From Dipteris shenzhenensis (Eukaryota), in the NCBI GenBank assembly GCA_047967505.1, contig CM106538.1: DNA of 64,000 nucleotides; one strand, written 5' to 3'. Below the pieces are notes generated by a model that was not told where the DNA came from, did no database searches, and worked only from the letters and a program-made list of their open reading frames with translations. The position numbers and the translations under genes were made by a program. Below, piece after piece: positions 13,765 to 42,389 of this stretch (its first letter is position 1; each line of letters starts with the position of its first letter).

Positions 13765-13795
13765 ACCCAACTTAACCCCAATAGGATACAACACA

Positions 13796-17041: not shown

Positions 17042-17044
<3 letters not shown>

Positions 17045-17078
<34 letters not shown>
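17045..17078. repeat. (AG)17 microsatellite; the paralog at 41909-41976 is (AG)34
   Basis: Direct reading. Confidence 0.95.
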
Positions 17079-17081
<3 letters not shown>

Positions 17082-21029: not shown

Positions 21030-22600
21030 GTCTAGCATAGCATAAGTGCATAGCATATCATAACATAAAAATGAAACTGCCATACCATAAGCTAATAAAA
21101 GAAATATTGCCATACCATAAGCTAATAAAAGAAACAATGGCATTCACATAGGCACAAACACCAATAGAAACATCCATAAAGCATAAAGCATAAAGCATAA
21201 AACATGCATAAAGAATTAGGCATATAGGCATTCACATAGGCATATAGACATATAGAAGCATAGACTAAAGAAGCATAGGCAAATAGGCATTCACATAAAG
21301 CATAGAAATAGGCATTCACATAAAGAATACACTTAATAGGCATAGAAGCATAGACTAATAGGCATTCACATAGGCATATAGACATAGAAGCATAGACTAA
21401 AGAAGCATAGGCAAATAGGCATTCACATAAAGCATAGCGATAGGCATTAAGCATAAAGAAGGCATCCATAAACATTTAAAGAGTCCATCCATAAAGCATA
21501 AAGCATAAAACATGCATATAGAAGCATAGACTAAAGAAGCATAGGCAAATAGGCATTCACATAAAGCATAGAAATAGGCATTCACATAAAGCATACACTT
21601 AATAGGCATAGAAGCATAGACTAATAGGCATTCACATAGGCATATAGATATAGAAGAAAGACTAAAGAAGCATAGGCAAATAGGCATTCACATAAAGCAT
21701 AAACTTAATAGGCATTCACATAAAGCATAGCGATAGGCATTAAGCATAAACAAGGCATCCATAAACATTTAAAGAGTCCATCCATAAAGCATAAAGCATA
21801 AAACATGCATATAGAATTAGGCATATAGGCATTCACATAGGCATATAGACATATAGAAGCATAGACATAGGCATACATAAACATAGATGCATAGACATAT
21901 AGGACCATAGATATGTGTCTAGCATAAACCCAATGAAACATAGAAGCACAAACAATGGCATTCACATAGGCACAAACAATAACATAGACATATAGAAACA
22001 CCAATAGAAACATAGGCATAGACTATAGCATAAATAGCATAGAAGCATGTAGAAACATAGGCAAGCATAAACATAGGCATTCATCAATGGAAAAGAAGGC
22101 ATCCATAAACATTTAAAGAGTAGATCCATAAAGCATAAAGCATAAAACATGCATATAGAATTAGGCATATAGGCATTCACATAAAGCATAGAAATAGGCA
22201 TTCACATAAAGCATAAACTTAATAGGCATAGAAGCATAGACTAATAGGCATATAGACAAATAGGCAAATAGGCATAGGCATTCACATAGGCATATAGAAG
22301 GATAGACATTCATTAAATAAGCATAAAGCATATACTAGCATTCACATAAAGTATAGAAGCATAAGGCATAAACATCAAGCATAAAATAAGGCACGCAATG
22401 GCATTCATTAAATAGACTAAAGAAGCATAGGCAAATAGGCATTCACATAAAGCATAAAGCAAATAGAAGCATAGGCAAATAGGCATTCACATAAAGCATA
22501 TAGACATATAGAAGCATAGGCAAATAGGCATAAAGCATAAAGTAGGCATTCACATAAGCATATAGACATATAGAAGCATAGACATAGGCATACATAAACT
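21030..22600. repeat. Hierarchical low-complexity repeat built from GCATA/GGCATTCACATA units
   Basis: Dozens of aggcattcacata(a/g) units with larger re-duplicated blocks; the ORFs here are repeat artefacts. Confidence 0.9.
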
Positions 22601-23727
22601 TATTACGAGATAGGATTTGTGGCATGGGAGGCATATATATTAAGAGAGGATTCTTTAGGATAGAAAATGGGGGTTAATGCTGGAACATTCCTTGGTCAAA
22701 GGATCGAATTAGTACTAACCTGGAAATTGCTGCCCAAGGTGAGCTGACTGCGTTGCAATCGACCTGTTGGGAGTTCACCTCGGAATGTACCCTAATGCCT
22801 CGATCCTCCCAATGTTTATGTCGCAATCGATACTCTTGGGAGTTGCAACTACTCACGGAGTCAAGGGCAATGGGCAACGTACGCCCCGGTCGTGAGTTGC
22901 TTCGAATGGTGCACTGCAGCAGCTAGTACACTGCATGTATAGATCACCCTTTTATTGCCTGCAGCTGCAGGGCGAATGGAATATCGGAACTGGCCTGGGC
23001 GCGGTGTACTAACTGCTAGTGTAGTAGCTGCTGGCCAAAAAATCAGAGCTGCTGGCCGAGCGCCTGCAATGTAGATGAATAAGGTGCCGCGCACGAGCAG
23101 CTGATCGATATGGTGCTTTGGTGGTACGCTAACGCGTATGGGAGTACAAGAAAGGTGTGGCATGTTAGCCCACCATTTAATTTCACTACTTTCTTTTGGA
23201 TTTGGTGGTTTACGTACAAGAGAAAGGATTGGTAGTTGGTGCAAGGGAAAGTGTTGGTGTTTGGTTTATGTAAAAGGAAAAGGTTGGTGTGGCTATGCTA
23301 GTAAATTTCTCCCTCTTAAACTTACTTTGGTCTTGTAAATTTCAAGATGTTAAAAATAATATTGACTATAGGTGATTTTGTGACAATTGATATCTAACGC
23401 TGGTCATGTTCAAGTTCCAACTTTATCATTTTGAATATCATATTGAATTTCGTATATATCAATGCTTGCAATTATTACACTAAACCTAAGAGCCGTGCGA
23501 AGTTTCATCCCCATGTGCGTATTTAAAATTAAGAGTATGATTTTGAATTTCAAATATCTCAATTCACACATCTAATACATAATGTATTTTAAAAATAATG
23601 CCGTGTGTCGTAATTGTAAACATTAAGCATTGAAAAAGTGCTTGCAAAAATGCATGCACTTCGATGTTATACTTCACCCAATCCGTATCATGCACAATCT
23701 TCTTTACTACATGTGAGATTTTGGATT

Positions 23728-24861
23728 AGTCGTGCTAGTAGGGATTGCTTCTACGTGGCGCAAACCAAATCAGTTGGAGACCAAATCTTGCGTGGATGTA
23801 CATCTAGGGTGGCCTAAGAGGCGTGTGAAGTTTCGTCCCCAACAGGGTTTAGGATTTAGGGTTCAGGGTTTAGGGTTTAGGGTTTAGTCGTGCTAGTAGG
23901 GATTGCTTCTATGTGGTGCAAACCAAATCAGTTGGAGACCAAATCTTGCGTGGATGTACGTCTAGGGTAGCCTAAGAGGTGTGTGAAGTTTTGTCCCCAA
24001 CAGGGTTTAGGATTTAGGGTCCAGGGTTTACAGTTTAGGGTTTAGGGTTTAGTCGTGCTAGTAGGGATTGCTTCTACGTGGCGCAAACCAAATCAGTTGG
24101 AGACCAAATCTTGCGTGGATGTACGTCTAGGGTAACCTAAGAGGCGTGTGAAGTTTTGTCCCCAACAGGGTTTAGGATTTAGGGTCCAGGGTTTAGGGTT
24201 TAGGGTTTAGTCGTGCTAGTAGGGATTGCTTCTACGTGGTGCAAACCAAATCAGTTGGAGACCAAATCTTGCATGGATGTACGTCTAGGGTAGCCTAAGA
24301 GGTATGTGAAGTTTCGTCCCCAACAGGGTTTAGAATTTAGGGTCCAGGGTTTAGGGTTTAGGGTTTAGGGTTTAGTCGTGCTAGTAGGGATTGCTTCTAC
24401 GTGGCGCAAACCAAATCAGTTGGAGACCAAATCTTGCGTGGATGTACATCTAGGGTAGCCTAAGAGGCGTGTGAAGTTTCGTCCCCAATAGGGTTTAGGA
24501 TTTAGGGTCCAGGGTTTAGGGTTTAGGGTTTAGGGTTTAGTCGTGCTAGTAGGGATTGCTTCTACGTGGCACAAACCAAATCAGTTGGAGACCAAATCTT
24601 GCGTGGATGTATGTCTAGGGTAGCCTAAGAGGCATGTGAAGTTTCGTCCCCAACAGGGTTTAGGATTTAGGGTCAAGGGTTTAGGGTTTAGGGTTTAGGG
24701 TTTAGTCATGCTAGTAGGGATTGCTTCTACGTGGCGCAAACAAAATCAGTTGGAGACCAAATCGTGCGTGGATGTACGTCTAGGGTAGCCTAAGAGGCGT
24801 GTGAAGTTTCATCCCCAACAGGGTTTAGGATTTAGGGTCCAGGGTTTAGGGTTTAGGGTTT
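23728..24861 (+). repeat. Tandem array of 7 units (158/165 bp), each ending in plant telomere-type TTTAGGG repeats
   Basis: Unit starts at 23728, 23886, 24051, 24209, 24374, 24539, 24704; unit lengths differ by exactly one 7-mer. Confidence 0.95.
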
Positions 24862-25795
24862 AGTCGTGCTAGTAGGGATTGTAAAAATGTATGCATTTGT
24901 CCTTCCATGTGGCGCATACCAAATCAATTGGAGACCAAATCTTGCGTGGATGTCGTCTAGGGTAGCCTAAGAGGCGTGTGAAGTTTCGTCCCCAACAGAT
25001 AAGTCCACGTGCGTATTTCATTAGTACGTGCGCCATTTTTCATACGTAGTCGTGCTAGTAGGGATTGTAAAAATGTACGCAACTGTCCTTCCATGTGGCG
25101 CATACCAAATCAGTTGGGCACCAAATCTTGTGTGGATGTACATCTACAGTAGCCTAAGAGTCGTGCGAAGTTTCATTCCCAACAGATAAGTCCACATGCG
25201 TATTTCGTTAGTACATGCACCATAGCTCATACGTAGTCGTGCTAGTAGGGATTGTAAAAATGTTTACATTGTACCTTCCACGTGGCGCATACCAAATCAA
25301 TTCAGACCAAATCTTGCGTGGATGTACGTCTACGGTAGCCTAAGAGCCGTGCAAAGTTTAATCTCCAACAGATAAGTCCACATGCATATTTGGTTAGTAC
25401 GTGCGCCATTTCTCACACGTAGTCGTGCTAGTAGGGATTGTAAAAATGTACGCATTATACCTTCCACGTGGCGCATACCAAATAAGTTGGAGACCAAATC
25501 TTGCGTGGATGTATGTCTAGGGTGGCCTAAGAGTCGTGCGAAGTTTCATTCCCAACAGATAAGTCCACACACGCATTTCATTAGTACATGCGCCATAGCT
25601 CATACGTAGTCACGAGTGCTAGTAGGGATTGTAAAAATGTACGCATTGTACCTTCCACGTGGCGTATACCAAATCAATTCAGACCAAATCTCACGTGGAT
25701 GTATGTCTAGGGTGGCCTAAGAGTCGTGCGAAGTTTCATCCCCAACAAGCAAGTCCACACGCGTATTTCGTTAGTACGTGCGCGAATTTTCTTAG
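24862..25795 (+). repeat. Five ~187-bp units of the same satellite lacking telomeric repeats
   Basis: Unit starts at 24862, 25048, 25235, 25421, 25608; same agtcgtgctagtagggattg...ccccaacag core. Confidence 0.95.
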
Positions 25796-26117
25796 TCACG
25801 TTTTTAAAATGTCCTAAAGCACAAAACAAATTACAACATTACTACTAATAAACAATTTTTTGTATTACAAACACAACAAATCCCATTGAGAAGACATCGG
25901 ACATCATGTTAAAAATAGAATCTAATACAATGATGTGTATGAACGTGTATACAACCATCATAGTGAAATACAAAATATGAGTCCATGAAAATTACAATGG
26001 TACGGTCACACAGTGAGCCTATATATATCGAATACAAAAAAGTGTAATCAACTAGTGATACCCAATAAAAATCAATCTGATCAACTGATGATCCCAAAAA
26101 ATATGATATGTAATGTG

Positions 26118-29031
26118 CTACTCCTCAGGATCAGCTCTCATGCCAATAGTTGCAAGTATGCTCTCATGATCCGCCACTGCAAGGTGCCATCGTGGGGTGG
26201 ACGTCGCCTTGCGAGTGCGAACACGACTCAAAGTAATCTTGATCCCAACAACAAGATGAGAATACATGTATGCCTCCTGATCCGCCATGTACTCCTGGAA
26301 CTCAATATAGCGACCACGCCTCTGTATCTGCTGAAAATAGTGGCCACCTACGATCATGCTATGAGCATTGAAGTGCACCCCATGCCCATCCACTGTATCC
26401 TCATTCAGCACACTCTTCAGCATAGAGCATCGCAACAAGTAATAATCCACACCCTCCTCATTGCCCTCCGAAGCAATAACCGCGAAGATATCACCAATAC
26501 GCAAAATATCTGTAAGCTGGTCATAATCTCTAGAGGAAATGAATCCCGCATCCTGATCATCATGTATCTCCTCCCAAGGCTGGAAGGGAGAAAGCACTCG
26601 CCGTACCCATGGATCGGCCCATGGTATCATGGAGCACCCTCCCCAATCATCATCAATGCATGCAGAGCAAAAACATGCAAACCGTCGAGAAAAGATCGCG
26701 GGGTGAGACTCACCTACACTCCTGATGGAATGGAAATCAAGAGTGCCAGGCACAGAACGACAATCAAAAGGCCTCGACAGATCAAGACTCCCAATGTCCA
26801 CGCACCAAAAATACCGGCTCACCACCCTATTGTCACGCGACTGAAACGAGGACGTAGCACTAGTGGATAAGTGCTGGCTGCACCACCGCACCACATCATG
26901 TGCATCCTTGAAGCGATCGGCACTGTGACGCAACTGGTATCGACGCAAAGCACGCTTCACGCAAGCACCTGCACCATCGTGCTCTCCCTTACCGTGCCCT
27001 GTCTCGAAGTAGCTCCATGTGATCGGAATGCATGTCTCACGATGCCATCTGCAGAACCAATAAAACTGTCTAGCGGATTTGAACTGACCACCGCAACCGT
27101 CTGACCAGATCTAGCGCCGCTGCCATGTGACACCATGATCCCTCAAGAAACTATCATGCAAAGTGAAGCAATGCTGCACAAAATGGGCATCATGCGATCG
27201 ATCATCACTAATGTAGAAGTGATACTCTCGCACAATGATGCGTGAGTCCATGGTGCTATCAATGCCATCCACATGAGCCTGTGCATGACGATAGCTAATG
27301 TGCACAAATATAGCAACCTGCAATATGGCATTGAAAAAAAATATGACTATTGAAATAATTCAATATAATGAGGCGGGGAAAAAATCAATACTAAATCACA
27401 TGTCACCTGTTCGGAGAAATAATACTCCGATTGGATCTCATGCTATGGTGCAAAGGTGTAATTCTCCGCAAAGTCCACCACTGAGACAACCACCCCTATA
27501 GGAAATGTCCTCAAACATGCACGAAACTGACGATCCTCCCATTTCGCAGTGTGCGAGTGGCGTATGTAGCGGTACAGCTTCCCTCGAAAACAGTCAATGA
27601 ATACAACACGTGGTGTCTCCTTCCCCACAAGCTGCAACCTCCTCGACTGTGCACCACCATCTAATGTCAAGGTACAGTACTCATACTGCTGCCAACGAAC
27701 CATCTGCACATCACAAGTATCTAGTGCAACTCGTGGCACTCTAGCAAAGTCACCACACAAAGTACACGTGCCTTCCACACAATCAAGGGAGTGGAATAAA
27801 GCATCACCATCTCGTGTACACAATATGGAATGAATGAAGTCGCGAGGGCTAGTAGGAACCACTCCCCTATGACCATCAAGGGAACGGAATACATCATACA
27901 TCAATCCAAAATCCACATGGTAGCGACAACAGCATGTGTCACGCTCCTGAGAGCATCGCACAAACCATGGCCTGCATTGCTCAAATGACCTCTGCCCAAT
28001 CTTGAACTCCGGGTGCGCCTCTACAAACTGAGTGTACAACTCAGTCTGGGTACACTATAAAAAACATGCACCATGCTCAATGTACACACCGCGTGACACC
28101 CTCTTCCGCAATGCCTTCTTGAACACCAGGGATGCTCTGCAATGCTCCTCCCAAAACTGTTGTATGAAGGACCTAGTGGAATCATCCATCGATCGCTATG
28201 AGGTGCACGACCACTCGAAGCCCAAAGAGCATCAGTCTCACTATCCTCTAGACTCTGCCTCTAGGCTGCTCGCAATGTGCGCGGTGCAATCTGAAGAAGA
28301 CGTGAAGTGGTACGCACATGGCCTATCATATGAGGTCTACTAATGGCAACCACAATAGCACGACGTGCTGCCAAGGCATCACTGGAGTTCCTATGCTTAA
28401 TAGAAGCATAGGAACATCAAACACTGCTAAGGACCTCGCTAGATACAACCCTATCTCTACGTGCACCAAGACCAGCAAGCCTCCTACACTCTACCAAGTC
28501 AGGGTGATCAATCAGGGACGTAAGAAGAGAAGACTGCGAAGCTGGCGTGAGGTCACAAAAAAAAGACTGCACAATCTTGCTAGTACGACGACGGATAGTG
28601 GACTTCGGCAAGTCACGTCGTGAAGCAACACTGCTGCTGCAAGGTGGGGCAAGGGGATCAATGGGAGATGGTAGGGTGGACGGGGGAAGGGAGGCGCCAA
28701 GTGGAGCGGGGGGAGGGGGAGGGGGAGGGGGAGGGGGGAGGGTGGAGGGGGAAGAGGTAGAGGTGGAGGCCAAAATGTAGGTGGCTAGGGGAAGGGCGAA
28801 GGCTAGAGGTAGGGGAGCGGATGAGCATGGGGGGACAATGGAGGTGGGGGTGGGGGTGGAGGTGGGATGTAGAGGTAGAGCTGGAGGTGGATCAGTGGTG
28901 GCAGCGCGAGCTCGAGCTCTAGAGGCTCTCTTGCGCTCACGAGCCTTCCGCTTGCGCTCCTTGTCAATGAGATTTGGGGGGGGGTTCCTACATCTTTCAC
29001 ATCTACTAGCTCTACGGCTTTGAGAACCCAT
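26118..29031 (-). pseudogene. Near-full-length Sola2-like DDD transposase with premature stops and one intron (27318-27406)
   Basis: ATG at 29031, basic and Pro-rich N-terminus, IGQRSFEQCRPWFV, TCCCRYH, SVVDFAENY, HFYISDDRSHD, WSDGCGGQFKS, GHGKGEHDGAGACVKR, C-terminal CFCSAC. A GT-AG intron joins EQ|VAIFVH. Confidence 0.8.
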
Positions 29032-29253
29032 TCTCAATGAAAGTAGGATGGAAGGTGTGACAAAGTGATGAGGAGGCAAGAATGGCTAAGAATGGGTGAA
29101 ATGAACCAAAACGTGGTGTCTTATAGAGAGCCTCAACTCATCCACTAGATTGCTCTTAGATTGCTCTTCATTATTATTGGTGGAGAGGTGCCAAGATTGA
29201 TACTAATTGGCTTAGTTTTGGTGGAGAGGTCTGCTATGCCCAGAGTCCCGATC

Positions 29254-29420
29254 ATATACCTTGATCAGACCTTATACCTCGATCGAGGTATTCAGTGCAT
29301 TGCGCATGTATGTATGAACCTCGATTGAGGTATCTCTAGGTGTCCTCGGTCACATACCTCGAACGAGGTATTGTATGCCTCACCCAGGTTATATACCTCG
29401 ATCGAGGTATTGTATGCCTC
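29254..29420. repeat. Cluster of 18-bp palindromes ATACCTCGATCGAGGTAT
   Basis: Perfect at 29274-29291 and 29393-29410; variants at ~29317 and ~29354. Confidence 0.85.
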
Positions 29421-30710
29421 GCACATCGTCATGTGTATACATCTGGCTGATGTGGCACCATGCATGGTCATGATGTGGTAATATAGTCTCTTCCTGCATG
29501 GTCATGATGTGGTACTGGGCCTCTTCGATGACATTGAAAGGTGATGTGGCATGATGAGTTGGCATTCATGAGGTGGTAGATTGACATGGCAAATTGAGGT
29601 GGAGGGATTGGTGACGTGGCAAGGTTGAGGAGGTATGCCAAGGTGTCATTGTGTGATCACATGGCTGATGATGTGGAATGATGAGGTGGCACATGTGGCA
29701 GCACTTGTGGCAATGTAAGGTGACATGGCAAGGAGTGATGTCACATCTGCTTGATGAGATGGCACCACGTGGTCTAACAACGTGGCATGGTTTTGATGAC
29801 TCAGCCTTCCACATGGGCAGCATGCAGACTCCAAAGGCTTGCCACTAGGATCGGTGATGCTCCTAGCCTACCTCACCAAGCCTAATACCAAGCCTACCTT
29901 GTCTTGGTATTAGGCTTGGATGGCCCTTTTTCCCCCACAAAAGGGAGATTTAACTGTTGGAGGCCATATCGTACGTTTCCCTTACTCAAATTTAACCAAA
30001 ATTTTTTCATTTTATTCATCATGCAGAGCACTAAAAATATTGACATTTTTGAAATGTTTGGTTATGTTTGAGAATTACTAGATTTATTTTTAATATTCTT
30101 TGTTGATCCTCTGAGGAGTAAAAGTAAAAATTAAACTTCAATCTTCCTAAATCTAACCGTTGGATTTGGGATTTGATGATTCAATCACACACCCTTATGT
30201 GCCTACTAACCTTCCACCGAATTGGATTTGCTCAATTATTCAAAATACTAAAAAAATGTGGTGTGCTACTAAAATGCATGTATTTTATGACTTTATTTAT
30301 TATAAATAATTATTTATAATTAGATAAATCATTTAAAAAATTACCAATAAATCAAGTTAAGCTCTACATAATGCAAAGAGACCACTTACAAAGTTTCAAT
30401 AACATTTAATCTAAAATGAGTGAGAAATTTAGAATTTAATATGACACTCTTTGTTCGTGACAAACGTGTGACCACCCTGGAACCATGCCTATGACACAAA
30501 GAAATTTTTTGTGTGTGCATCGAATTTTCGATCAGACTATACGATTGTGTGCACAATAGCAAGTGTGATGTTGTGTCAGAAGACTTCAAAGACTAGATCC
30601 ATAGGGAAGTAGGTGAGATTTGCATTTTTGTGTGCTAAAAAGCTTGTTTTTCCACCTCCTTAGGATTGGGGAGTGAACAAAAAGTGGACACCCTTAGCTT
30701 GCTACCACCC

Positions 30711-32792
30711 TACTATGAAAACTTTAGGTCTTTGAATTCGGAGCAACGACTAATTGGTGATGACATACTTTTAAAGAAAAGAACGTCACCTACAAAACCA
30801 TTCCATCTTTTCCTAACAAGCAATGCAGGAACTGGAAAAACATTCATGCTACTTGCAATCGTCCAAGCGTTGTTGTGTACTTACTCACACAAAGAAACAA
30901 ACAATATAGACTCTCCCAAAATATTATTGCTCGCTTACACAGGAAAAGCAGCTTTCAACATTGGAGACACAACGATCCATGCTGCACTACATCTACCACT
31001 TATGACATCTCAATACACAAGCCTATCGAGCGAGAAACTACAAGAACTATCACAACTCTTCAAAGATCTTTCGCTAGTAGTATTTGACGAAGTATCTTTG
31101 ATTGGATACAACACATTTGTTGCAGAGCAGACATGCATCTAAGAGAGATAAAACACAACCACATGCAACGATTTTGTGGTCTTGATGTTCTCCTTTGTGG
31201 AGACTCATGCCAAGCTAGCCCTACAAAAGATTCATGGCTATTTATTGATCAATCAATACAAACATAAGTACAAACATCATTTTGAAAGAACAATGTCTAC
31301 CAATACGAACTAACAACACCAATGTGACAAACGAACTATGAATTCATTAACATTCTCAACAAAATTAGAACAGGCATACATATAAAGGCTGACATCACAC
31401 ACATAAATGAAAAGTAACTAAGACAACCACTTCAAAAAGAAATCATTCCCCATCTATTTTACACTACTGCTTCTAAAGACATTCACAACAAAGAAGTATT
31501 CCATTTACTCAAACAAACTCCTCATATTCTACAAGCAATAGACATAAGACACAAAACATGCAGCAAAACAATAACAATCCCAATGAACCCATCGAACACT
31601 TCTGGATTACATTAAACATTGCATTTAAAGCCCGCAGATAGTCGAAATGTGCTTGGGTAATCTAGACATCTCCGATGGATTGGTCAATGGAGTAGATGGG
31701 ATCTTTCAACATTCTACCCTTATGGGAGAATTGCAATGTGTTTGGATCTTGTTCCACAATGATACTATCGGCAAGAAAGCACGCTTAAATAACTCCTCTC
31801 TATATTCCAATGAAGTACCGAAGTCGTGGACACCAATATTACAAATCAAAAAGAATTTCAAGTAGGGAAAAACAACTTCAACATTGTTTCTCGAACACAA
31901 TTCCCAATTCAGCCAGCTTCAACTAGGATAATACACCGTTCCCAAGGTCTATCCATGGACTACCTCGCATTTGATCCATCCTTAATTAAGACACATGGCC
32001 TCACATACACAGCTCTATCACGAATAAGAAACCCTGATAACTTTTACCTTCTAAAACCACTCCACTCAAAACACATTAAAGTGGACAAAATCATCATACA
32101 AGAGATGGGAAAACTTCGAACACATAGACAATGGATTCCAACACAAATAAACTTCTCAACTAATATCAGCCAACAAAATACATTGCAATCCCTCAATACA
32201 CGTGCACTAAAGTCCCACTTAATTGACATAATTAAAGACACAAGTCTCCTTCAAGCATCAATACTCTATCTCCAAGAATTGCATTGCAACAAATCGTCAA
32301 CACTATCCTTGCCAGAATTCACGTGTCTCCAAGAAACAAATGGTGTAGGAATAGCAACATGTTACAAAAAAGAAATGCAACTACAACAAAAAATTTACAA
32401 ACAAAACCAAGGATCTGAATGCTTATTGACCATATTTCAAATGCAAATAAATAAAAAAGTAGCCATCATAAAAGTCTACAACTCACCCCTCTCCAAAACT
32501 TCTTTAGTCCTTGATAATCTCCAAAAATTATTTCTACACATTGAGGAAGATACACCCATAACAATCATAAGAGATTTCAACATCGACTTCTTAAAAAAAA
32601 CAAAAAACCAAACAACTAACAAATTTCATGGATCAACAAAACTTCGATCAATTGATTTTGCAACCAACTACTATTCATGGATCTACTATTGACCACATTT
32701 GAACAAATCACAAGAACAACCACATGTTGTTTGGTACAAATTACATCTCTTGGTCAGACCACTCACTTCTTTACACAAACATTGTTTCCTAA
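30711..32792 (+). mobile_element. Second copy of the Helentron-type helicase-endonuclease region (no Rep, no LTR insertion)
   Basis: Colinear with 2681-5720; AGTGKT, DEVS, IHRSQGLS, TYTALSR, DFN, IDH, SDH. Confidence 0.9.
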
Positions 32793-33039
32793 CAATCTTA
32801 TGCAACTTTACAAAACCTTCTTCAAGAAATTCAAAGGGAAATTCATGGAGGCCATTTGAATGTAATTCATCTTGTTTGATGATATGTATTACTTCTTTTT
32901 GCAAAACAATAGACAATGTTGAAGAGTTTCTTGGTGACTTTTTCATGGGAAAGTTAGAGAAGAAAAACAATGACCAGTAAACGAAAGACCAATAAGCCAA
33001 AGGAAAACCAAAAATCATTGCTGTTCCCATGGCCTCTCC

Positions 33040-33046
33040 TTATAAG
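33040..33046 (+). promoter_or_regulatory. Candidate TATA box of the 788-aa gene
   Basis: TTATAAG ~65 bp upstream of ATG 33107; TTATAAT at the paralogous position. Confidence 0.35.
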
Positions 33047-33106
33047 TATGTCAAGCATCCTTCAAGCATACATACCATTGCTTTCGAATGACCTTGCTCT
33101 CAAGCT

Positions 33107-35473
33107 ATGGCGACTTCTTCTTCCTCCTCTCCCTTGTTAGTTTCAACCCTCGTGAATTTCCAATTTTGGTTCATCGCTGTGCTCTACTGCCTCGCCTCGC
33201 TTCTCATGCTATGCCTGATGGCCTACGATATCAGGCTTTTCAAACTCTATCGCCAATATTGGTTCCCCTGCAGATTTCTCCGATTCGACTCCTTCACTTT
33301 GATGCTGCTGCTATTGTGTCTCAGCGCCATTCGGATCAGTCTTTCGACCTTAGATCTTAGCTATATGCTCATTGCTCATCAACTTGATGCGTATGTGGCA
33401 TACGAAAGTCGGGTCCTGGTGTTGAAGGTCCTTGTGTGTGTTGTCATTGGGTATATCCTTCCCTCGGTTGCAAGTGACTCGTCTGCACAGAGCGATATTT
33501 GGAGCAGCGTTAGGGGCCTTGCTTTCCTCATAGCGTCTGTCGTTCCTCACATGCTTTTCGAGCTGTATGTCTTGTACAATATTGCGTCTGCAGTGTTTTC
33601 CTCCGGAAGCAACATCAGTGCGTACGTCCATCATGGGACAACTGCAAAAGTTATCGTAGTTGCAACAGCAAGCATTTGCGTCACGGCAGCTCTGTTGTTC
33701 TTGGTATTGCTGTTGATGGCAGCTGCGACAGCTGTGCTAGGTTTGAGAGAGTTGTTCGGCCACAAGTTAGAACTTTGTCTTCCACGACACAGTTTTGCAT
33801 ACTCCTCATGGGAGCAAGTCCGCTTTGAGGCATTGAAATCTTGGGTTGTGGCTCGAACATCGGATCCTGAATTTGTTCTTGCCAGGTCAGTGATCGGTCC
33901 TGTCTCAGCAATCACCGTATCAGGTTGTTTAATGGCCCTTATATCTGTTGAAATTTTCGCGATAATGAGTGTGCGGGATGGAGGGTCTTTGTCTGGCTAC
34001 TTCCGAGGGGCCGAGTTTTTTTCATTTCCTACCATTGCACTTGGGTGGAGTGTAATAGTCACAAGATCGTTGTTGCAAGTTATGAATTGCCCGAGATTCG
34101 AGCTTTCATATTCGAGCTGTAAAAACTTCTTCAAGGTGGAGAGCTTCTGGAACAGACATCTTCTCAGGAGCATCCACTCCAGTGTCTGCAATCGTCAGGA
34201 CCACAACGGATCATGGCAATTATGCTTGAGGAAGATCTACATCCTAATTCGGTACTTGCTTTTCTACATAGTCATATCCTCAAACTTTATCACAATTTGG
34301 ATGAGCAAGATAGGATGGTTGACGATGGAGTTGACTATGGGAGCGATGTTCAAGACGATTAGACGATTCCTCTTGTGCAGGAGGACAAACTCAAGCAGTG
34401 AAGAGACAACGTCATTAGAGCCTCTAGAAGAATGGGTTATGGGCGTGGAGGGAGAGGATAAGCATGCTCTTTGGAACGCTACAAAGGGGGCATTGAACCG
34501 TACAAGGAAGCTGTTGATGGCCGAGCGAGTGGAGGACCACCAGATTTCTGCCTTAACAACTCTGCTAGGAATGGTAGACACACAGAATTTTTGTGGAGTA
34601 AGAGAGTACGTGAAGTTTGTGGAAATGCTGGAAGGAAGTGAAGACCGCAAAAGCGCGGACCCCCTGGAAAGCAGCTGGACGATGTTAGCAGCCACTCTCG
34701 CGGTCGTGCTGTCTTGTCTTGATGGGAGCCTACACGATCATAATGTAAAGGATCCATTGGCTCCGTGCTGGGCGAGAAGCTGCTACGAACAAGCGAGGGA
34801 GATGATGAGAGCTGTAGACACGGCAAGCAGGAAGGATGACAATGCGCAGATGCTATTGATGAGGGCAGCGGAGGAGGCACTGATTTCAGATTGGACATTG
34901 AGGGTGGTGGGCAAGAAGCTAGGAGGATGTACGAGGGAGGAAGAAACGGCGTTGGAGAGGATAAGAGCGTGGAAGGGGTTGGGCAAGGAGATGGGCAAAG
35001 GTGATGGAGAAGACTACAGAGCAGGAAGTGTGGTTGCTGGAAGAAGTATGTTGAAGGTGTGTGCTTTGGCAGAGACTGTAGGAGAACGATTGGGAGAGAA
35101 GGCGATGGTGGAGTGCTTGATTCAAACGTTTGCAGATGTTGTGGGGGCTTGCTTGACAAAGCTTCCTTGGGCATGCGTTGTCCATTGCTACTATGGTTCA
35201 AGAGCCTTCTGTGAGTCCAAGGTTGTAAGCATCTTCCCTATCATTGCCAAAGGTGAGAAGCTTTTCAACGCTGCAGGATGGTCTCTTCAACCCTCTCCCA
35301 ACACGACCAACTTGACTTTACACAACTTTCACAATTTGATCCCCCCTCCTCCTTTTCCTCCTCCTCAAAGATCATTTTGGCGCATCTATGGAAGCCTTCT
35401 CAGCTCCCCACCCTCACGTTTGACACATTCCACCACAACCATTAGTTCCATTCATAGCATTCCCAATATTTAA
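33107..35473 (+). CDS. Intronless plant-specific multi-pass membrane protein of unknown function (At4g17250/At5g47580-like, PTHR35307-type), 788 aa
   Basis: Open ORF with several hydrophobic N-terminal helices. Family-like motifs ASLL..MAYD..WFPCRF, W.VA.T.DP.FV.ARS, FKVE.FW, WTM...TL, D..GACLT.LP. Confidence 0.85.
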   Translation: MATSSSSSPLLVSTLVNFQFWFIAVLYCLASLLMLCLMAYDIRLFKLYRQYWFPCRFLRFDSFTLMLLLLCLSAIRISLSTLDLSYMLIAHQLDAYVAYESRVLVLKVLVCVVIGYILPSVASDSSAQSDIWSSVRGLAFLIASVVPHMLFELYVLYNIASAVFSSGSNISAYVHHGTTAKVIVVATASICVTAALLFLVLLLMAAATAVLGLRELFGHKLELCLPRHSFAYSSWEQVRFEALKSWVVARTSDPEFVLARSVIGPVSAITVSGCLMALISVEIFAIMSVRDGGSLSGYFRGAEFFSFPTIALGWSVIVTRSLLQVMNCPRFELSYSSCKNFFKVESFWNRHLLRSIHSSVCNRQDHNGSWQLCLRKIYILIRYLLFYIVISSNFITIWMSKIGWLTMELTMGAMFKTIRRFLLCRRTNSSSEETTSLEPLEEWVMGVEGEDKHALWNATKGALNRTRKLLMAERVEDHQISALTTLLGMVDTQNFCGVREYVKFVEMLEGSEDRKSADPLESSWTMLAATLAVVLSCLDGSLHDHNVKDPLAPCWARSCYEQAREMMRAVDTASRKDDNAQMLLMRAAEEALISDWTLRVVGKKLGGCTREEETALERIRAWKGLGKEMGKGDGEDYRAGSVVAGRSMLKVCALAETVGERLGEKAMVECLIQTFADVVGACLTKLPWACVVHCYYGSRAFCESKVVSIFPIIAKGEKLFNAAGWSLQPSPNTTNLTLHNFHNLIPPPPFPPPQRSFWRIYGSLLSSPPSRLTHSTTTISSIHSIPNI

Positions 35474-37794
35474 TCATTGCACCTTGGAAATTATCAAGCC
35501 TATAGTCTCCCCACCCACCTCGTGTAACACATGATATTACAAGAAGTTTATATTCATATTGGCACATATTTCAACCCACAATCTCCCACTCCTTTATTTT
35601 TTCTTTCAAAGAACAATTTACAAGCATGCTTTCCAACTTACCCTCCAAAATAGCTACTCAAAGAAGTAAGGAAGAATGAATTCTTGTAATTAAAAATCAT
35701 CTATAGAAACGAATCAATTGTTGTTTTCTCCTCCTACTAGGAATCGAATCCACTATATCATTATGTTGCAAGGCTCAAAGGTGTGTGTATATAAAGCTTG
35801 GCCATCAACGGTAATTAACTCCTCACGTCAAGGGAGCCACTTGAAAATTTGTAACCTTAGCACATGTGTTTTAACTTTGATACTCCTTTGCACATAACGT
35901 TTACATACATTCAAACTTTTAGTGCCAAAAAAAAATATCTGAATTAATTAGCTCTTGAAGACATGTGGTATGTGTGATTTCTATACAGATTTGACCTCCC
36001 TAAGTATTTTCACTTGCAATAAATTCTTCCACTAAATGCATAGTAGCTATGATCCCTCCAAAAAACACAAGGATTTAATGATCATTACTTTAATTTTTCA
36101 AAATGTACTAATAGAAATAGTAGCACCAAATAAAAATTAGTTCAAAAAATGTTGCATATTGTAAAATTCTAGAAAGATCAAATCAAGAATTAGACCCATA
36201 ACTCATCTTGGGCTACTTCATCATTTCACCATTTATCTTTTGCTAACTTGTTGAAGATGTAAATTATACTATGTGTGTAATTGGGATAATGTATATGCCA
36301 AGAGGCAAAATGTGCGTAATTGAAGATGTAAATTTCACTATGTGTGGAATTGGGACAACGTATATGCCAAGAGGCAAAATGTACATTTTGTCCATCAAAA
36401 CTTTTGTATTTATCAAAATAATAACTACAAACGTTTGTAATTCAATCTTTGCACCTAAACTGCTTCAGTTTGAGAGGGGGTAGAGTTTGCACTTCCTCTT
36501 CCTCGTATTTCTTTTTTCAATTTGAGAGTATGCATAATTTTGCACCTCTCTCATTTAGTTAGTTTGTCAAGAGGAAAGGATGTAGCTCTTTGCCTCTCAC
36601 ATGTGCTTTCACAAGTCTTGTCAAGGTTTGTAGCTACTCTACTGATATGCCCTTTCTCCCATTTGGTTGGTTAGGAGGGGCCATAAAAAACCCAGCACCC
36701 CTCTTCTTTTTGAGTACACAAGGTTGGTCCTCATTATCCTCATTGGTCGAGGCATGAGGGACGAGCCTAGCCACTAAGATGGTGATTGTGAACAAGGCCC
36801 CATCCTAGCCTAGCACCCAATGTGCGACCTAATGTCCCAAATGTAGTGCCAAACAAATTGCAAGGGATACAAACAAGGATACAGATGGGCGTACATAAAC
36901 ATCTAATGAAGTCCACCATTACAACAAAGAATCTACATGGAGTACCACAACTTGCCACATAGATGGCAGAACAATTGCTATGATGATGCTAGAGTAGTAG
37001 AAAGTGATAGAAGTTTCCCCACCCTAGCATGTTGTTCATGATAGAAAAAGTACAAAGGTGGCCCAAAGAAAGTAAGCCTAAGGCCCTATTTGATGGTTTA
37101 GCCAATGCAGCTACACCTAGTTCATATCTTTTCATATCTATTTAGTGGTCTAGCTATTGGTGGTGGCTTGATTAGAGAGGATAAGTTACATAAATATTTG
37201 ACAACTAAACATATTCTCAAGCTTGCCTCTCAACTTCTGGCTAAAGCCAATGAGAGAGTGAGCATCGTAGTAGAGGAGCAAGAGGTGATGTGGCCTCATC
37301 AATGCCACATGGTAGTCTTTCAAGCCAACACTAATTGTTGCTACATGGTAGCCTCAAAGCCTACCTTTTAGGCCCCCCTTGAATCTTTGTCACTATTCTA
37401 GTTAGAAAGGCAATAAAGCCTTCTCCTCCAAGCTTGTTCAAAGGTCTCACTCGTGCCATCTCAAGTCTTTTGCAAAGGTCCTCTCTAAATCTTTTCAAAA
37501 TGCCCTATCTTAAACCACATTCAAGCTTCAAAGGGTGGTTTGCACCATTATTTTATCCTCTTAAAATGCTAAAAAATGTGTCCTCCATAGCATCCCATTT
37601 AGTAAAATATGTATTACCATATTGCACGTACCAATTCACACAATCTAGTTCTATCTTTAGACCCTTCAAAAAGTAGGAGTCAGATAGTGGGTCAAAGCTC
37701 ATTCCTTATTTGATAATGACATGATATTGAGTGGAGTCACACTAGTACACATAGGCACTTTTATGACTCTTAACATACTAGTCTAATATTTCTG

Positions 37795-39319
37795 GAGGGT
37801 CATTGTTTGCTTGGGTGTAGCCATTTTTGGTGAGGTTCAGGATTTTTTCTGTATATAGGTATCTTGCATGACCCATAACTTATGCATTGCTCAACGGAAT
37901 TCGGTAAACTTTGTCTTCAAGTTGTAGTACACATTTCAAACTTGAACATGAGAGCAAAAAATTATGGAATAAGCATTTGGAAAGAGACTGTTAAAGCATT
38001 ACAAGTGCTATGTTACATGGCAAGCATGCATCTTGAAGACTATAGGATATAGCAATTTATTCAAAAGCATCAAAATTTGTTTATTATATACTTTAATTAG
38101 ACTGTGTTTTGTCTTCTTTTAGTAGTAGCAAAAAGGAGGCTCACTGTTCTATTGTTCTCGCATGTTGGGTCAGCAGACCGAGTTGTATCTCAAGTTTATG
38201 GATCAGAATCCATACATTTCAATTGGGCAAAGGAGCTTTGAGCATTGTAAGCCCTGGTACATCAGGAAAGTCAAAGACAAAAATGTTTATTATTACAAAA
38301 CACACATAGACTTTGACCTGGACCGACAAGCTATGAATGACTTGAGATCTGGTCGTGTTGGAGCATTGCTCCATGGGGATCGATGCCCATGCCTCCCCGA
38401 TGAATGCGCAGTCTGTAGGCCACCTGGATCCTCATCCTGTGTTGCAAGGGAGGGCAGGTTTTGTAGCCTAAGGTCTCTGTGGGAGACAGTGGTTTGTCCA
38501 AAGAGAGACCATGAGTAGCACCGGATTGAATGCATTCACAGCACATGCAAGCATTGCAGTTTGACGTTAAAGAACAAGACATTCAATGTCTATCCAAATG
38601 AAATGAGGGAAGACAACCATGTTGCTCTAAAATGGAGAAGATTTGAAAATGTCAATGTTGAAGGATCTGATAAAAAGAGATGGCTACTATCATATAAGAG
38701 CACCCAGCCAAGGGAGCTTATAGGTTACGTGGTTCAATCCATCCCAAAATATGTGCTTCACAATTTCACAGCCAGATGTCAGGATAAGCAATTCAAGATG
38801 TGCCTTGCCAATTTTCCCCATGACACTATTATATCTGTCATAGATTTTGCTGAAAATTATTCATTTCAAGAAGAAGATAAGATATAAAGTGCTCACTGGT
38901 ACAACAAGCAGATAACAATTCTTGTGCATATCACATACCGTCATTTTCTTGATTCTTCCATGCTTGATGCCAATCTGCTTGCTGACTCACAGGAGTCCAG
39001 GTCAGTGCAATGCATGTACCATTTCTACATTTTAGATGATAGGGAACATGACACCTTATTTATGCAGCATGCTTTTCAACTGCATCGGGAATGGCTGAAA
39101 AAGGAAAATCGCCATGCAGAAAATATAAAACAACATTGGGTGTGGTCAGATGGTGCTGCCTGTCAATTTAAATCAACCTGTGGATTCTACTTCGTCTCAA
39201 GGTTCAAATCCGAGTCAAATCGTTGACCCATTTAGACATGATGTAGAATTTCTTTGGGTCTAGCCATGGCAAGGGTGAACATGATGGATGCGGTTCTATT
39301 ATTAAGCAAGCTCTATTTA
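37795..39319 (+). mobile_element. Duplicate of the truncated Sola2-like fragment
   Basis: Colinear with 10654-12180; DFAENYSF, WSDG, HGKGEHDG. Confidence 0.7.
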
Positions 39320-40874
39320 AAAGGTCAATGAGAGGTGGGCTTTTTTAAAAAAAATTTGTAGAATGCACAATTGGTTGTGCTTTGATAAGTCTTAGCAAGC
39401 ATCACTTTTATTGAAGAGGGGAGTCTGCATACTTGCCACCATCCAACAAACAAATTGATAAGAACCATATTTGAATTTAGTTGGGAAGACAGGTGTCATA
39501 AACACCCCTCCCTTGTTATCAGGATCATGATAAAAAAAGTTGCTCACACTACAAACTCATAAAGCTAAATTTTGACACAATGATATACGTGTAAAATTAG
39601 TTGGGTTGTGCCAAAGGAAATGCAATTTTATTGTTATGCAATGAAGAAAAATGTTAATGCATTTGTGCTGAGAACAAAAAAAAGGAGAAAAGAGGAGATA
39701 ATAAATAAATACATAGAGCATTAAATGTAGAACTAAGATTTAGAGCAAAGAAGGGGGAAATTTTATAAGAAAGAGGAGCATAAATTAATATTTAGAGCAT
39801 AAAATGCAAAATTTTAAAAGAAAGATAGGGTTTTTTTTAAATAATTAAAAAGTAAGGACTTGGAAAGACTTAAGAAAGACTAAGAGCATAAAACTTAAAT
39901 AAACGAAGCCTTAGAGCCCTAAATGATCAATTAAGAGAGAGACTTTTAAGGGAAATAAAGGATGGGGAAAAGTAAAGGATTTGGGGGGGGGGGGGATTGA
40001 AAAGAGAGGACCTTAATGTCCAAGTCGTAATGATAGGTGCAGGTACAACAAGGTACAGTGATGGAGTGCCACGTGATCAAAGGACCATGCACAACTGTCG
40101 AGACGTAGTGTAGAGGAGGCACGGGATTTGGGGACTATCATCGTAAAGAGACATAGAGACAGCTACAAGACAGAGACTACTAGGGAACCACAAGCAAGGG
40201 GGCCAGCTAAGGTGAGAGGTCCACGTATGAGAGGCGGAAGAGGTGATAGGACAATGATGGGAGCAAAAGGCAAGGGGCTTAAAGTAGGTTGTAGGCATTA
40301 CGCAATCGATGGGACGAAGGCACGTCGTTTACGAAAAATCAATCAGTCGGGCAGAGGGAGGGTTAAGAGTTTTAGAGAGGGGAGAATTTAGAGCGTAGGA
40401 GAATTGCTGAGAGTGGAGGGGGTTAAGTAGCTTGTGAGGCTAGTCGGTAGTTGGAAGCGACTATCAGGCAGGGAAAAGAAGGGTCGAGGAAGATAAGGGG
40501 TTTCTTTTGGAGGGAGTAAACTAGGCGGTTGGATAGAGGTTTAATTAGGGAGGGGAGGTTAGGGGGAGAGGGGGTTATAAGTTTAGTTAAGGAAGAAATT
40601 GGGAAATTTTAGGGGGAATTTAGGGGGGCAAAAATAGGGGGAAATCGGGAGAAGAACTAGGTGAAAATTGAGGGGGCAAAGAGGGGGGGTAGGAAAATTA
40701 GAAAAAATATTTAAGAAAAATTTAAGGGAAATTTAAGCAGAATTAGGGGGAAATAAAGGAGAAAGCTAGGGAAAAATTAGAGAGGGGGTGGGGGGAAGGA
40801 AGGGAAAAAGGAAGAGGGGAGGGGAAATTAAACATGGAAATAATATAGGGGGAAGGGATAAAAAGTAAATTGAA
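39319..40874 (-). mobile_element. Non-autonomous Helitron copy C (both ends lost)
   Basis: Homologous to 12177-13718. Confidence 0.75.
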
Positions 40875-41902
40875 CAAATACTATTGCATTGTCACCTTGA
40901 GCTAGAACCCCTAGGGTCTAAGATGCTAAACCTGGACCTGTTGGAAGCATATAGCTAGGATCCAAATCGTGAAACCTTAGACCCATACCAAAGCTGGCAA
41001 CTTCAAAACTTGAACATAGGACCTGGTATCCCAATATTCAAGACAAAATGTAACCCAAAATCTGATATTTGAGATCACAATTTAGAACACTAAAACCCAA
41101 AGCTCATAAACCTAGCCTAGACCTAAACATTGGATCCAGATCCCAAAAATTGAACCCAAAGATTGTAGAATATGAAGCTTGGAATGTGGAATCTAAAACT
41201 TAGATCGAGGACACTAGAACTTGTAACTTGGATAAGAAACATATAGCATCAAAATACTAGAATACCAAATCTAAGGTTTGGATGTATCTATCCACCGTCT
41301 CCAGAAAATGGCACTATTTCCATTCTTCAAAATTTCCCCCATCTTAATGTCACAATTGTAAGATTGTGGAGAATGTCACTAGTGCCATTCCCCCATTGCA
41401 TAAGCATGACATTGCACTAGCCCTTAGATGATGAAGTCACTATCTACCTTAATGGTTCCTCTTTCTACCATTTGATATAACTAGTTATTCTCGCAGAAAT
41501 CCCCTCTTTTACTATCTCTATTTTTTGGTTCCTTCAGCCCATAGCAGCAAGGCTATTTTGGCTGCTTTTTACAATGCTCAAGAACACAATCAGATGACAT
41601 GTGTACAAGAAAATCCACACAAAATAGAGGTATGTACAGTAATATTGATAGCAAAAATACCAAGTAATATATTGCTCTAAGGTATGACAAAAGAGGCACA
41701 ATCTACATAGCACCTAAAGCCCATTGCCTACACATAACAAACACAACACACAATCTTCACAACCCTTTTCCAAATCTCTCAACAAAATCCAAACATCATA
41801 CTTGAATCAAAATTCGTACAAGGTTTTGAATTGCAAGAAGATATCCCGATTCAAAAACCATATATAATTGCAAAGGCATCATAATAAGACACTCTACAAA
41901 AA

Positions 41903-41979
<77 letters not shown>

Positions 41980-42389
41980 CCATGCACACCAAATGCCATG
42001 TATTCTAGAATATGTGTATGAGACTAATGAACCCTTCTACAAATTTTGGAAACTTTTTGTTGGTGTTTAGAAGTGGGAAGATGAAACTGGTGTGTTGTTC
42101 AATTCCCATGTTGTAGATGGTACACAATTTTGCAATTAGTGTATCTTCTCCATGGAGGATCCCAATTCCACTCCCAAATGTTTGGATCTATTGTGCATCA
42201 GTGCGTGGAACATCCATCCCATGGGATAGGTGATTTTCATAACCTTCTCCTCAGCTCATGTGTAAGTCCCCAACACTTGTGGTTCATTGCATGTAGTGGT
42301 ATTTGAAGATGTGTGTGCTTTGTTCCACTATCGATGTAGAGCATCCTACAACTTGCATTCCTTGTGCATTGTCACAGATGGAAGATCCA

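What the first reader, a model, noticed from the sequence alone, without database searches (positions are those of the whole stretch)
30640..30730. Duplication breakpoint coincides exactly with a putative Sola2 transposon terminus
Seen: homology to copy 1 starts precisely at 30711 (=2681, mid-helicase). The adjacent sequence reads GGGTGGTAGCAAGCTAAGGGTGTCCACTTTTTG inward, similar to the putative end at 10654, and no matching partner end with a TACT target duplication was found. Recalled knowledge: Sola2 termini are GRG..CYC, and alternative transposition of Ac ends makes tandem duplications bounded by an element end. Inference: a Sola2-type transposase generated this gene duplication.
Basis: partly seen in the sequence, partly recalled or inferred. 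Interest (0 to 1): 0.7.

Follow-up and report, generated by a model that had tools for sequence, protein, structure and literature searches.

The report
Transposon end at a duplication boundary
A cut-and-paste (Sola2-type) transposon ends within two bases of where the second copy of a 12-15 kb duplicated segment begins, but the sequence does not show that the transposon made the duplication, and an ordinary insertion followed by a deletion explains it at least as well.

Summary
The observation mostly holds. Copy 2 (30711-42253) becomes homologous to copy 1 (2681-17354) exactly at 30711=2681, inside a Helitron Rep/helicase gene. The first 35 bases are identical and there is no cryptic homology upstream.

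The DNA left of 30711 is a real Sola2-superfamily transposon on the minus strand. Its transposase exons (26133-28656) carry the Sola2 signature motifs. The family is high-copy in four public runs. In one related organism two contigs follow it to 30712 and then run into flanks unlike the window. One contig of another run already leaves the window's sequence at 30655.

The claimed likeness to a "putative end at 10654" is not above chance. No partner end was found, with or without TACT.

The inference that the transposase generated the duplication is not supported. The 13.4 kb spacer is composite, and its left 6 kb belongs to other repeats. Copy 1's end at 17354 does not abut a Sola2 end, and copy 1 is not preceded by the element.

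I favour ordinary insertion into copy 2 followed by deletion (about 0.45) over alternative transposition (about 0.2).

The parts
30698..30714 (.). Junction J2. The last bases of the transposon (...TTGCTACCACCC, ending at 30710) are joined to TACTATG... of the Helitron helicase region (30711 = 2681).
   Evidence: 35-base identical run from 30711; no homology upstream; two X5 contigs leave the window at 30712
25696..30710 (-). Sola2-superfamily transposon, the part shown to be a multi-copy family; its 5' end relative to the transposase lies at 30710. It probably extends left through the 23726-25791 array to about 23485.
   Evidence: all 4 runs cover 25801 to about 30710; X5 contig 25 runs 105 bases past 25801
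26133..28656 (-). Transposase coding blocks 28656-28201, 28195-27404 and 27323-26133, matching residues 79-919 of the 942-aa relative P0004. Motifs are VVDFAENYTF, IWSDGCGGQFKS and FETGHGKGEHDGAGACVKRAL.
   Evidence: tblastn; ORFs; alignment A1; Sola2 reference alignment in PMC3627910 supplementary file 2; no Pfam hit
23726..25791 (+). Tandem array of 165-186 bp units downstream of the transposase. Each unit carries ACGTGGCGCA/TGCGTGGATG motifs, and the 165-bp units up to 24863 carry a run of 6-7 AGGGTTT heptamers. The units hold a weak inverted likeness to the 30661-30712 terminus.
   Evidence: TRF; best unit scores 31, above the 99th and below the 99.9th percentile of 3496 tiles; orphan partial unit 23485-23513
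17355..23484 (.). Left part of the spacer, not assignable to the Sola2 element. It holds a 383-bp tandem array (17665-18682), the N-terminal fragment of a multi-copy fern-type protein gene (20636-18851, minus strand), an AT-rich array (21175-22592) and a GC-rich stretch (22674-23300).
2681..17354 (+). Copy 1 (A) of the segmental duplication. It has two stretches absent from copy 2: 4516-5479 and 13719-16024.
30711..42253 (+). Copy 2 (A') of the segmental duplication.
1096..4604 (+). 5'-truncated Helitron Rep/helicase remnant of copy 1: Helitron_like_N tail in ORF 1261-1725 and PIF1 helicase in ORF 2594-3583. Stretch 1096-2680 has no second copy in the window.
11033..12192 (+). Second, distantly related Sola2-like transposase fragment inside copy 1 (the same fragment lies at 38174-39333 in copy 2). 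It breaks off where the repeat that begins at 12178 starts.
   Evidence: 27-41% identity to P0004-P0010
33092..35473 (+). 793-codon open frame for a plant-type membrane protein of unknown family, the gene that is duplicated. The copy-1 version, 6167-8332, has a 2-base deletion at 6200 that puts the N-terminal part out of frame.

Best explanation
Position 30710|30711 is the place where the 5' terminus of a Sola2-superfamily cut-and-paste transposon (minus strand, about 7 kb, transposase at 26133-28656) was integrated into the linker just before the helicase domain of a Helitron Rep/Hel gene in the second copy of a pre-existing 12-15 kb segmental duplication.

Homology to copy 1 stops there because the transposon interrupts it. 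The Helitron sequence that should resume on the far side of the element, together with the element's own 3' tip, was later removed by a deletion in this repeat-rich region. On this reading the coincidence of breakpoint and transposon end is a by-product of an ordinary insertion, not evidence that the transposase made the duplication.

Shown: the breakpoint, the Sola2 nature and multi-copy status of the element, the composite nature of the spacer, and the absence of a second end. Inferred: the order of events (duplication, then insertion, then deletion) and the deletion itself.
For: The breakpoint is exact, with no cryptic homology upstream.

The element is Sola2 by its three catalytic-region motifs, compared with the Repbase Sola2 alignment. 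It is high-copy in 4 of 4 runs laid, and cover stops in the bin that holds 30710. Two X5 contigs diverge at 30712.

No inverted partner of the terminus exists anywhere in the window. The leftmost array-like unit (23485-23513) lacks the TAGGGTGG part, as a truncated 3' end would.

Spacer 17355-23484 belongs to other repeats: a fern-type multi-copy protein family with a weak Transposase_21 hit in one relative and no link to Sola2. So the end of copy 1 does not touch this element.

Other rearrangements have hit the same locus: two copy-1-specific stretches, and an inverted 99.8% copy at 1-1095 that truncates the Helitron at 1096.
Against: No trace of the upstream Helitron part (1096-2680) lies anywhere in the 13.4 kb spacer, so the deletion is postulated, not seen. 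The scenario needs three events.

It also requires that 17355-23484 was the native start of the second repeat unit. That cannot be checked, because the matching region upstream of copy 1 has been replaced by the inverted segment at 1-1095.

CTCA-G-CTCA at the end of copy 2 (42250-42258) resembles a 4-bp duplication with an excision footprint, which the alternative-transposition model predicts and this one does not. One X1 contig leaves the window at 30655, so the terminus at 30710 is not beyond doubt.
Confidence: 0.45

Rival explanations
1. Alternative (sister-chromatid or reversed-ends type) transposition. The element sat just after copy 1. Its two ends, taken from sister chromatids, were inserted at TACT (2681) on the sister. 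This gave pre-A-element-A'-post in one step, and the donor flanks were rejoined at the end of A'.
For: The order pre-A-spacer-A'-post, with the element's end exactly at the start of A', is the order this model gives. In the Ac alleles of PMC3744419 one Ac lies at the duplication junction (passages). The end of A' reads CTCA G CTCA before the unique sequence, like a 4-bp target duplication plus footprint, and the end of A reads TTCA. Sola2 elements make 4-bp target duplications (PMC3627910). An exact coincidence of a breakpoint with a transposon end is improbable for a random breakpoint.
Against: The end of copy 1 (17354) abuts 6.1 kb that is not this element, and 17355 onward has no inverted likeness to the 30710 end. 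The spacer's left part is several unrelated repeats, not one later insertion. Copy 1 is not initiated by the element, unlike the genomic examples in PMC3744419. The CTCA repeat has a chance probability of a few percent (my estimate, no call). The edges of the duplication differ by about 4% while the element differs by about 1.3% from X1 contigs (38 differences in about 3000 bases), which does not place the element before the duplication.
Confidence: 0.2
2. Junction made by DNA repair, not by transposase: a tandem duplication by end joining or template switching with a 13.4 kb inserted stretch. Its right edge happens to lie at, or was set by a break at, the transposon end, for example a transposase-cut or excised end captured at a break.
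For: If the terminus is TAGGGTGG..., as the two X5 contigs matching to 30712 and the CTAGGGTGG in the array units suggest, the element and the Helitron overlap by 2 bases (TA), as in end joining. TTGCTACCA occurs both at 30698-30706 and 24 bases upstream of the breakpoint in copy 1, at 2648-2656. The locus carries other non-transposon rearrangements.
Against: The 9-mer is not significant in a 200 x 200 base comparison, and the 24 bases between it and the breakpoint are missing, which microhomology joining would not give. A 2-base match has a 1 in 16 chance. A random breakpoint within 2 bases of a transposon terminus is improbable unless the break was at that terminus.
Confidence: 0.2
3. Copy 2 is an independently transposed, 5'-truncated copy of a very long Helitron that carries the downstream genes, or else the tandem arrangement is an assembly artefact.
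For: The duplication starts inside a Helitron. An ATCCCATGGGAT palindrome lies 27 bases before the end of both copies. No contig from any of the four runs was shown to bridge 30710|30711. The segment at 1-1095 is 99.8% identical to copy 2.
Against: Neither 30711 nor 17354/42253 has the Helitron ends (5' TC, 3' CTRR, insertion between A and T; recalled definition, read directly). The segment holds fragments of several unrelated repeats in the same order in both copies. The 33149-35486 part has depth 0 in all four runs, except a trace of 0.22 in X2 over 34151-34484, so it is not a repeat there. The copies differ by indels and 0.3-4% substitutions, with no run of N.
Confidence: 0.1

Closest known systems
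Sola2 DNA transposons (Sola superfamily; Repbase families such as Sola2-5_HM, and the Dictyostelium and Polysphondylium elements of PMC3627910)
   Same: The transposase has the same three conserved blocks: DFAENY(S/T)F..Q.EIQS, SDG(C/A)..Q(F/Y)K and HGKG..DG.G..KR. The element end reads GGG inward, in line with the G-purine starts of the Dictyostelium elements (GAA/GAG) seen in supplementary file 3.
   Different: No terminal inverted repeat and no 4-bp target duplication could be shown, because only one end is present. The flank TACT is not of the AWWT type reported for the amoebozoan elements. The element carries a long 3' tandem array with telomere-like heptamers. The closest proteins are unnamed plant, moss and metagenome sequences at 30-60% identity.
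Tandem direct duplications made by alternative transposition of maize Ac/Ds (PMC3744419; passages read)
   Same: Two direct copies, with a transposon end lying exactly at the start of the second copy.
   Different: The first copy is not initiated by the element. The spacer is composite, and its other edge is not an end of the same element. The target duplication shared with a reciprocal product cannot be examined.
Ordinary nested transposon insertion into one copy of a segmental duplication, followed by illegitimate-recombination deletion (general knowledge of plant genomes, recalled)
   Same: Homology between the copies stops exactly at a transposon terminus. The element lacks its other end. 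Neighbouring repeats are truncated fragments.
   Different: The expected continuation of the Helitron on the far side is nowhere in the window, so the deletion is inferred only.

Membership tests
Sola2 (Sola superfamily) transposon | DDE transposase with the Sola2 conserved blocks | tested here: met
   The window frames and 7 relatives align with invariant WSDG..QFK and G.GKG.HDGAGA..K. The same blocks stand in the Repbase Sola2 alignment of PMC3627910 supplementary file 2. The comparison was by eye at motif level, not a profile search, and Pfam has no hit.
Sola2 (Sola superfamily) transposon | 4-bp target site duplication | tested here: inconclusive
   Only one end is present. The flank is TACT, and no second TACT next to a candidate end was found.
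Sola2 (Sola superfamily) transposon | Terminal inverted repeats (12-21 bp in the elements of PMC3627910) | tested here: not met
   There is no inverted partner in the window. Only a weak likeness to the array units was found, between the 99th and 99.9th percentile. The other end is probably missing, so this counts against an intact element, not against the family.
Sola2 (Sola superfamily) transposon | Multi-copy family whose copies share the sequence up to a common terminus | tested here: inconclusive
   The family is high-copy in 4 of 4 runs. Two X5 contigs stop matching at 30712, but one X1 contig diverges at 30655. The table was cut and only one call was allowed.
Transposon-made tandem direct duplication (reversed-ends or sister-chromatid transposition) | Each repeat initiated by the element, or one element at the junction with both of its ends touching the two copies | tested here: not met
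   Copy 1 is preceded by Helitron sequence 1096-2680. Position 17355 onward is not an end of this element, and 6.1 kb of other repeats lie between. The criterion is taken from PMC3744419.
Transposon-made tandem direct duplication (reversed-ends or sister-chromatid transposition) | Target duplication shared between the duplication junction and a reciprocal deletion, or an unmatched duplication at the middle element | not testable with these tools
   This needs other haplotypes or the whole genome, and none is held.
Helitron copy (5'-truncated rolling-circle product) | 3' CTRR end with a nearby hairpin, and insertion between A and T | tested here: not met
   The copies end ...CTTCA|T and ...CCTCA|G, and copy 2 starts CCC|TACT. 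The definition is recalled, not taken from a call.

The most novel reading that the evidence does not exclude
A Sola2 element, through an aberrant or alternative transposition that joined its 5' end to the sister chromatid inside a Helitron, produced the tandem duplication of a 12-15 kb segment that includes an intact membrane-protein gene. The left part of the spacer was altered afterwards. This would be the first natural case of duplication by alternative transposition outside hAT and P elements, and in a fern-like genome.
Probability: 0.2. Interest if true: 0.6.

Novelty: new member of a known kind. Interest (0 to 1): 0.3.

Why it matters
If the transposase did make the duplication, alternative transposition as a source of gene duplicates would extend beyond the hAT and P systems to the little-studied Sola superfamily.

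As it stands, the locus documents an apparently coding-competent, high-copy Sola2 family in a fern-like genome, and a duplicated gene pair in which one copy is already frameshifted. It also shows that homology which starts at a transposon end is not by itself evidence for transposon-made duplication.

Tried and rejected
1. Whole genome: none is held, so family ends could not be defined from genomic copies.

2. Exact 20-base terminus (30691-30710) in metagenome contigs: 0 hits.

3. Protein-guided scan of metagenome contigs: 80 loci were kept of 275 confirmed. All share only coding similarity (window 26883-27987) with the element and none shares the terminal region. Contig groups L007-L011 and L042-L059 gave no usable termini. 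The look-alike GGGTTGTAGAAAG in L059 has no extended similarity: score 18 against null 19.8 +/- 3.2.

4. CACTA reading of junction J1. CACTACAAA lies on the minus strand at 17355-17363, with a possible partner at 12405. But CACTACAA occurs 4 times against 2.5 expected (22 of 100 shuffles reach this), the inverted repeat is only 9 bases, the 3-bp flanks differ (TCA, ATG), and the 90% copy of that repeat lacks the motif. I treat it as chance.

5. Alternative terminus at 30697 with an inverted repeat starting at 23485: score 19, reached by 27% of 4078 tiles. The DNA left of 23485 has no Helitron homology: score 83 against null 74 +/- 7.

6. Earlier findings of this scan: nothing by place, by sequence or by words.

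7. The parts of 25801-35800 without cover in the runs are not used as evidence of absence.

8. Bao et al. 2009 (Mol Biol Evol 26:983) and Yuan and Wessler 2011 (PNAS 108:7884) are not held. The GRG...CYC terminus rule is therefore recalled only.
Full report
ANATOMY OF THE WINDOW

No genome is held for the window. It looks like a repeat-rich land-plant genome, probably a fern: the nearest named proteins come from Adiantum and the moss Ceratodon.

Self-comparison shows two direct copies of a 12-15 kb segment:
- Copy A is 2681-4515, 5480-13718 and 16025-17354.
- Copy A' is 30711-32555, 32552-40874 and 40889-42253.
- A has two extra stretches, 4516-5479 and 13719-16024.

The copies differ unevenly: 4.1% over the first 1.8 kb, 0.3-0.8% over 6861-11860, and 2.7-4.2% over 11861-13718 and the tail.

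Each copy holds, in the same order:
- the helicase half of a Helitron Rep/Hel gene (PIF1 domain);
- a long open frame for a plant-type membrane protein of no known family;
- a fragment of a Sola2-like transposase on the plus strand (11033-12192 in A, 38174-39333 in A');
- a G-rich repeat.

Because fragments of several unrelated repeats stand in the same order, this is a true segmental duplication and not two insertions of one element. The 1585 bases before copy A (1096-2680, the Rep part of the Helitron) have no second copy in the window.

THE OBSERVATION

Homology starts at 30711=2681. The first 35 bases are identical. The 200 bases upstream of the two points give no alignment above shuffled controls on either strand. 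In copy A the breakpoint lies in the open Rep/Hel frame just before the LNSEQ start of the helicase domain, so copy A has the native context and the join at 30710|30711 is the new one.

The sequence left of 30711 belongs to a transposon on the minus strand. Three coding blocks (28656-28201, 28195-27404, 27323-26133) match residues 79-919 of a 942-residue relative at 42-61% identity. They carry VVDFAENYTF, IWSDGCGGQFKS and FETGHGKGEHDGAGACVKRAL. These are the blocks that stand in the Repbase Sola2 transposase alignment in supplementary file 2 of PMC3627910. Pfam has no model that hits them.

IS 30710 THE ELEMENT'S END?

The only family-level evidence comes from laying Logan contigs of four public runs on 25801-35800 (the tool allowed one call, on 10 kb).

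For:
- All 4 runs cover 25801 to about 30710 as a multi-copy sequence. X5 depth runs from about 3 to the thousands. X1 pieces differ from the window by about 1.3% (38 differences in about 3000 bases of the pieces listed).
- X1-X3 have depth 0 from 30811 on.
- In X5, two contigs match as far as 30712 and then carry tails of median 184 letters that are unlike the window. Their mutual agreement is 0.7, close to the 0.63 I expect for two unrelated sequences.
- GGGTGGT recurs in the same orientation 233 bases inward, at 30465-30477.
- The 165-186 bp units of the array on the other side of the transposase hold, in inverted orientation, a weak colinear likeness to 30661-30712 (TAGGGTG..GC..CTAAG.G...TTCA.TCCCCAA). 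It scores 31, above the 99th and below the 99.9th percentile of 3496 tiles.

Against:
- One X1 contig of depth 17.4 leaves the window's sequence at 30655.
- Only a small part of the tables was printed.
- No contig was shown to bridge the junction.

I put the terminus at 30710-30712 with about 75% confidence. If TA belongs to the element, as the X5 contigs and the array units hint, element and Helitron overlap by two bases.

WHAT DOES NOT HOLD

The likeness to a "putative end at 10654" is at chance level under both scoring schemes. That site is merely 380 bases upstream of the second, distantly related Sola2 fragment, and it has no inverted partner either.

No partner end of the 30710 terminus exists in the window: not by BLAST with short words, not by Smith-Waterman tiles, not with up to 3 mismatches in 13 bases, and not next to a TACT.

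THE SPACER IS COMPOSITE

The 13.4 kb between the copies (17355-30710) is not one element.
- The Sola2 family is shown from about 25696 rightward. It plausibly includes the 23726-25791 array and an orphan partial unit at 23485-23513 that lacks the TAGGGTGG part.
- Further left lie an AT-rich array (21175-22592), a GC-rich stretch, and the N-terminal third of a protein that is multi-copy in Adiantum (20636-18851, minus strand). It has 24 relatives at E<=0.001, and one of 8 relatives scanned has a weak Transposase_21 hit at E 2.4e-4, below Pfam's cut-off.
- Next to the end of copy A is a 383-bp array (17665-18682).
- That protein family is absent from all 80 Sola2-bearing metagenome loci and shows no similarity to the Sola2 transposases.

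So the end of copy A (17354) does not touch this Sola2 element. About 6.1 kb of other DNA lies between.

MECHANISM

Two facts need explaining: the exact coincidence of the homology start with a transposon terminus, and the absence of the rest of the Helitron on the far side. A random breakpoint would hit a terminus within 2 bases only rarely, so the join was almost certainly made at the transposon end, either by integration or at a transposase-made break. Three histories fit.

(a) Ordinary insertion of the element into the Helitron of a pre-existing second copy, then a deletion that took the element's 3' tip and the upstream Helitron.
- This uses only common events. It fits the missing second end, the truncated leftmost unit, the composite spacer and the many other rearrangements at the locus.
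- It treats 17354|17355 as the original duplication junction and 17355-23484 as the start of the second unit.
- The matching region upstream of copy A cannot be inspected, because an inverted 99.8% copy of 40300-41394 now abuts the Helitron at 1096.

(b) Alternative transposition, as in maize Ac (PMC3744419, passages).
- It predicts the order seen (pre-A-element-A'-post). It could also explain CTCA-G-CTCA at the end of A' as a target duplication plus footprint.
- But it needs both ends of one mobile unit at 17355 and 30710, and the left one is not there. Copy A is not initiated by the element either.

(c) A repair junction (end joining or template switching) at a broken or excised transposon end.
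- This is hinted at by the possible 2-base overlap.
- The TTGCTACCA 9-mer shared by the element's tip and the Helitron 24 bases upstream of the breakpoint is not significant.

My weights are (a) 0.45, (b) 0.2, (c) 0.2, with 0.1 for a Helitron product or an assembly artefact. The remainder is unassigned.

COMPARISON WITH WHAT IS KNOWN

The element is a new member of the Sola2 group by its transposase. Intactness and the 4-bp duplication could not be shown. Sola2 elements elsewhere have 12-21 bp inverted repeats and AT-rich 4-bp duplications (PMC3627910: main-text passages, supplementary file 3).

The Dictyostelium elements in that supplement start GAA/GAG and end TTC/CTC, while the Polysphondylium elements start GTT. 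GGG...CCC here is compatible with the G-purine starts, but three bases are weak evidence.

Literature search was limited. For Sola2 I made two searches. I did not search for Sola-made duplications specifically, so I make no claim that none is in print.

VERDICT

The coordinates and the core observation are right. The transposon is real and of the stated type. The comparison with 10654 is chance. The causal inference is possible but disfavoured by the spacer's anatomy. Whole-genome family ends and a second haplotype would settle it.

Noticed in passing
window 1-1095 and 40300-41394: The first 1095 bases of the window are an inverted copy of 40300-41394 (copy A') at 99.8% identity, against 94-98% to the equivalent in copy A. 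It abuts the Helitron at 1096 and cuts off its 5' half. This is either a very recent inverted duplication running off the window or a misassembly.
   Followed up: partly
window 23726-25791: This tandem array has 165-186 bp units. Each 165-bp unit up to 24863 contains a run of 6-7 AGGGTTT (plant telomere-type) heptamers; the later 186-bp units lack them. The array lies just downstream of the Sola2 transposase and is at least partly shared by family copies in another organism.
   Followed up: partly
window 5861-13718 against 32976-40874: Divergence between the two copies is 0.3-0.8% in the centre (6861-11860, including non-coding DNA) but about 4% at both edges. This pattern suggests gene conversion between the copies, or a two-step origin.
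   Followed up: no
window 6200 (copy A) against 33337-33338 (copy A'): Copy A of the membrane-protein frame lacks 2 bases, which puts its first 70 or so codons out of frame. Only copy A' keeps the frame from MATSSSS... (793 codons, against 721 open codons in A).
   Followed up: partly
window 12178-15870 against 39319-40874: Copy A has two 90%-alike 1.5 kb repeats (12178-13706 and 14277-15832) about 570 bases apart, where copy A' has a single one. This looks like an LTR pair against a solo LTR. The repeat starts where the second Sola2-like transposase fragment breaks off at about 12192.
   Followed up: no
window 17355-17363: TTTGTAGTG, the reverse complement of the CACTA-type terminus CACTACAAA, stands immediately after the end of copy A, with CACTACAAA on the plus strand at 12405. 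The flanks do not form a 3-bp duplication and the 8-mer count is at chance level.
   Followed up: yes
window 30655: One contig of run X1 (depth 17.4) follows the element to 30655 and then reads 21 other letters that begin with a repeat of TTTTTCCA. The family therefore has at least two variants of its last 55 bases.
   Followed up: no
window 29440-29800: This region is a cluster of about a dozen GTGGCA-containing motifs (GATGTGGCA, GACGTGGCAAGG, ACATGGCAAGG), 0.9-1.3 kb inside the element's 5' end. Related ACGTGGCGCA motifs stand in the 3' array. They may be transposase binding sites.
   Followed up: no
window 60799-63999 and 49557-51954: A Ty1/copia polyprotein frame open over 1066 codons (gag_pre-integrs, rve, RVT_2) runs off the window's right end on the minus strand. 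A degraded Ty3/gypsy-type RT and integrase lie at 49557-51954.
   Followed up: no
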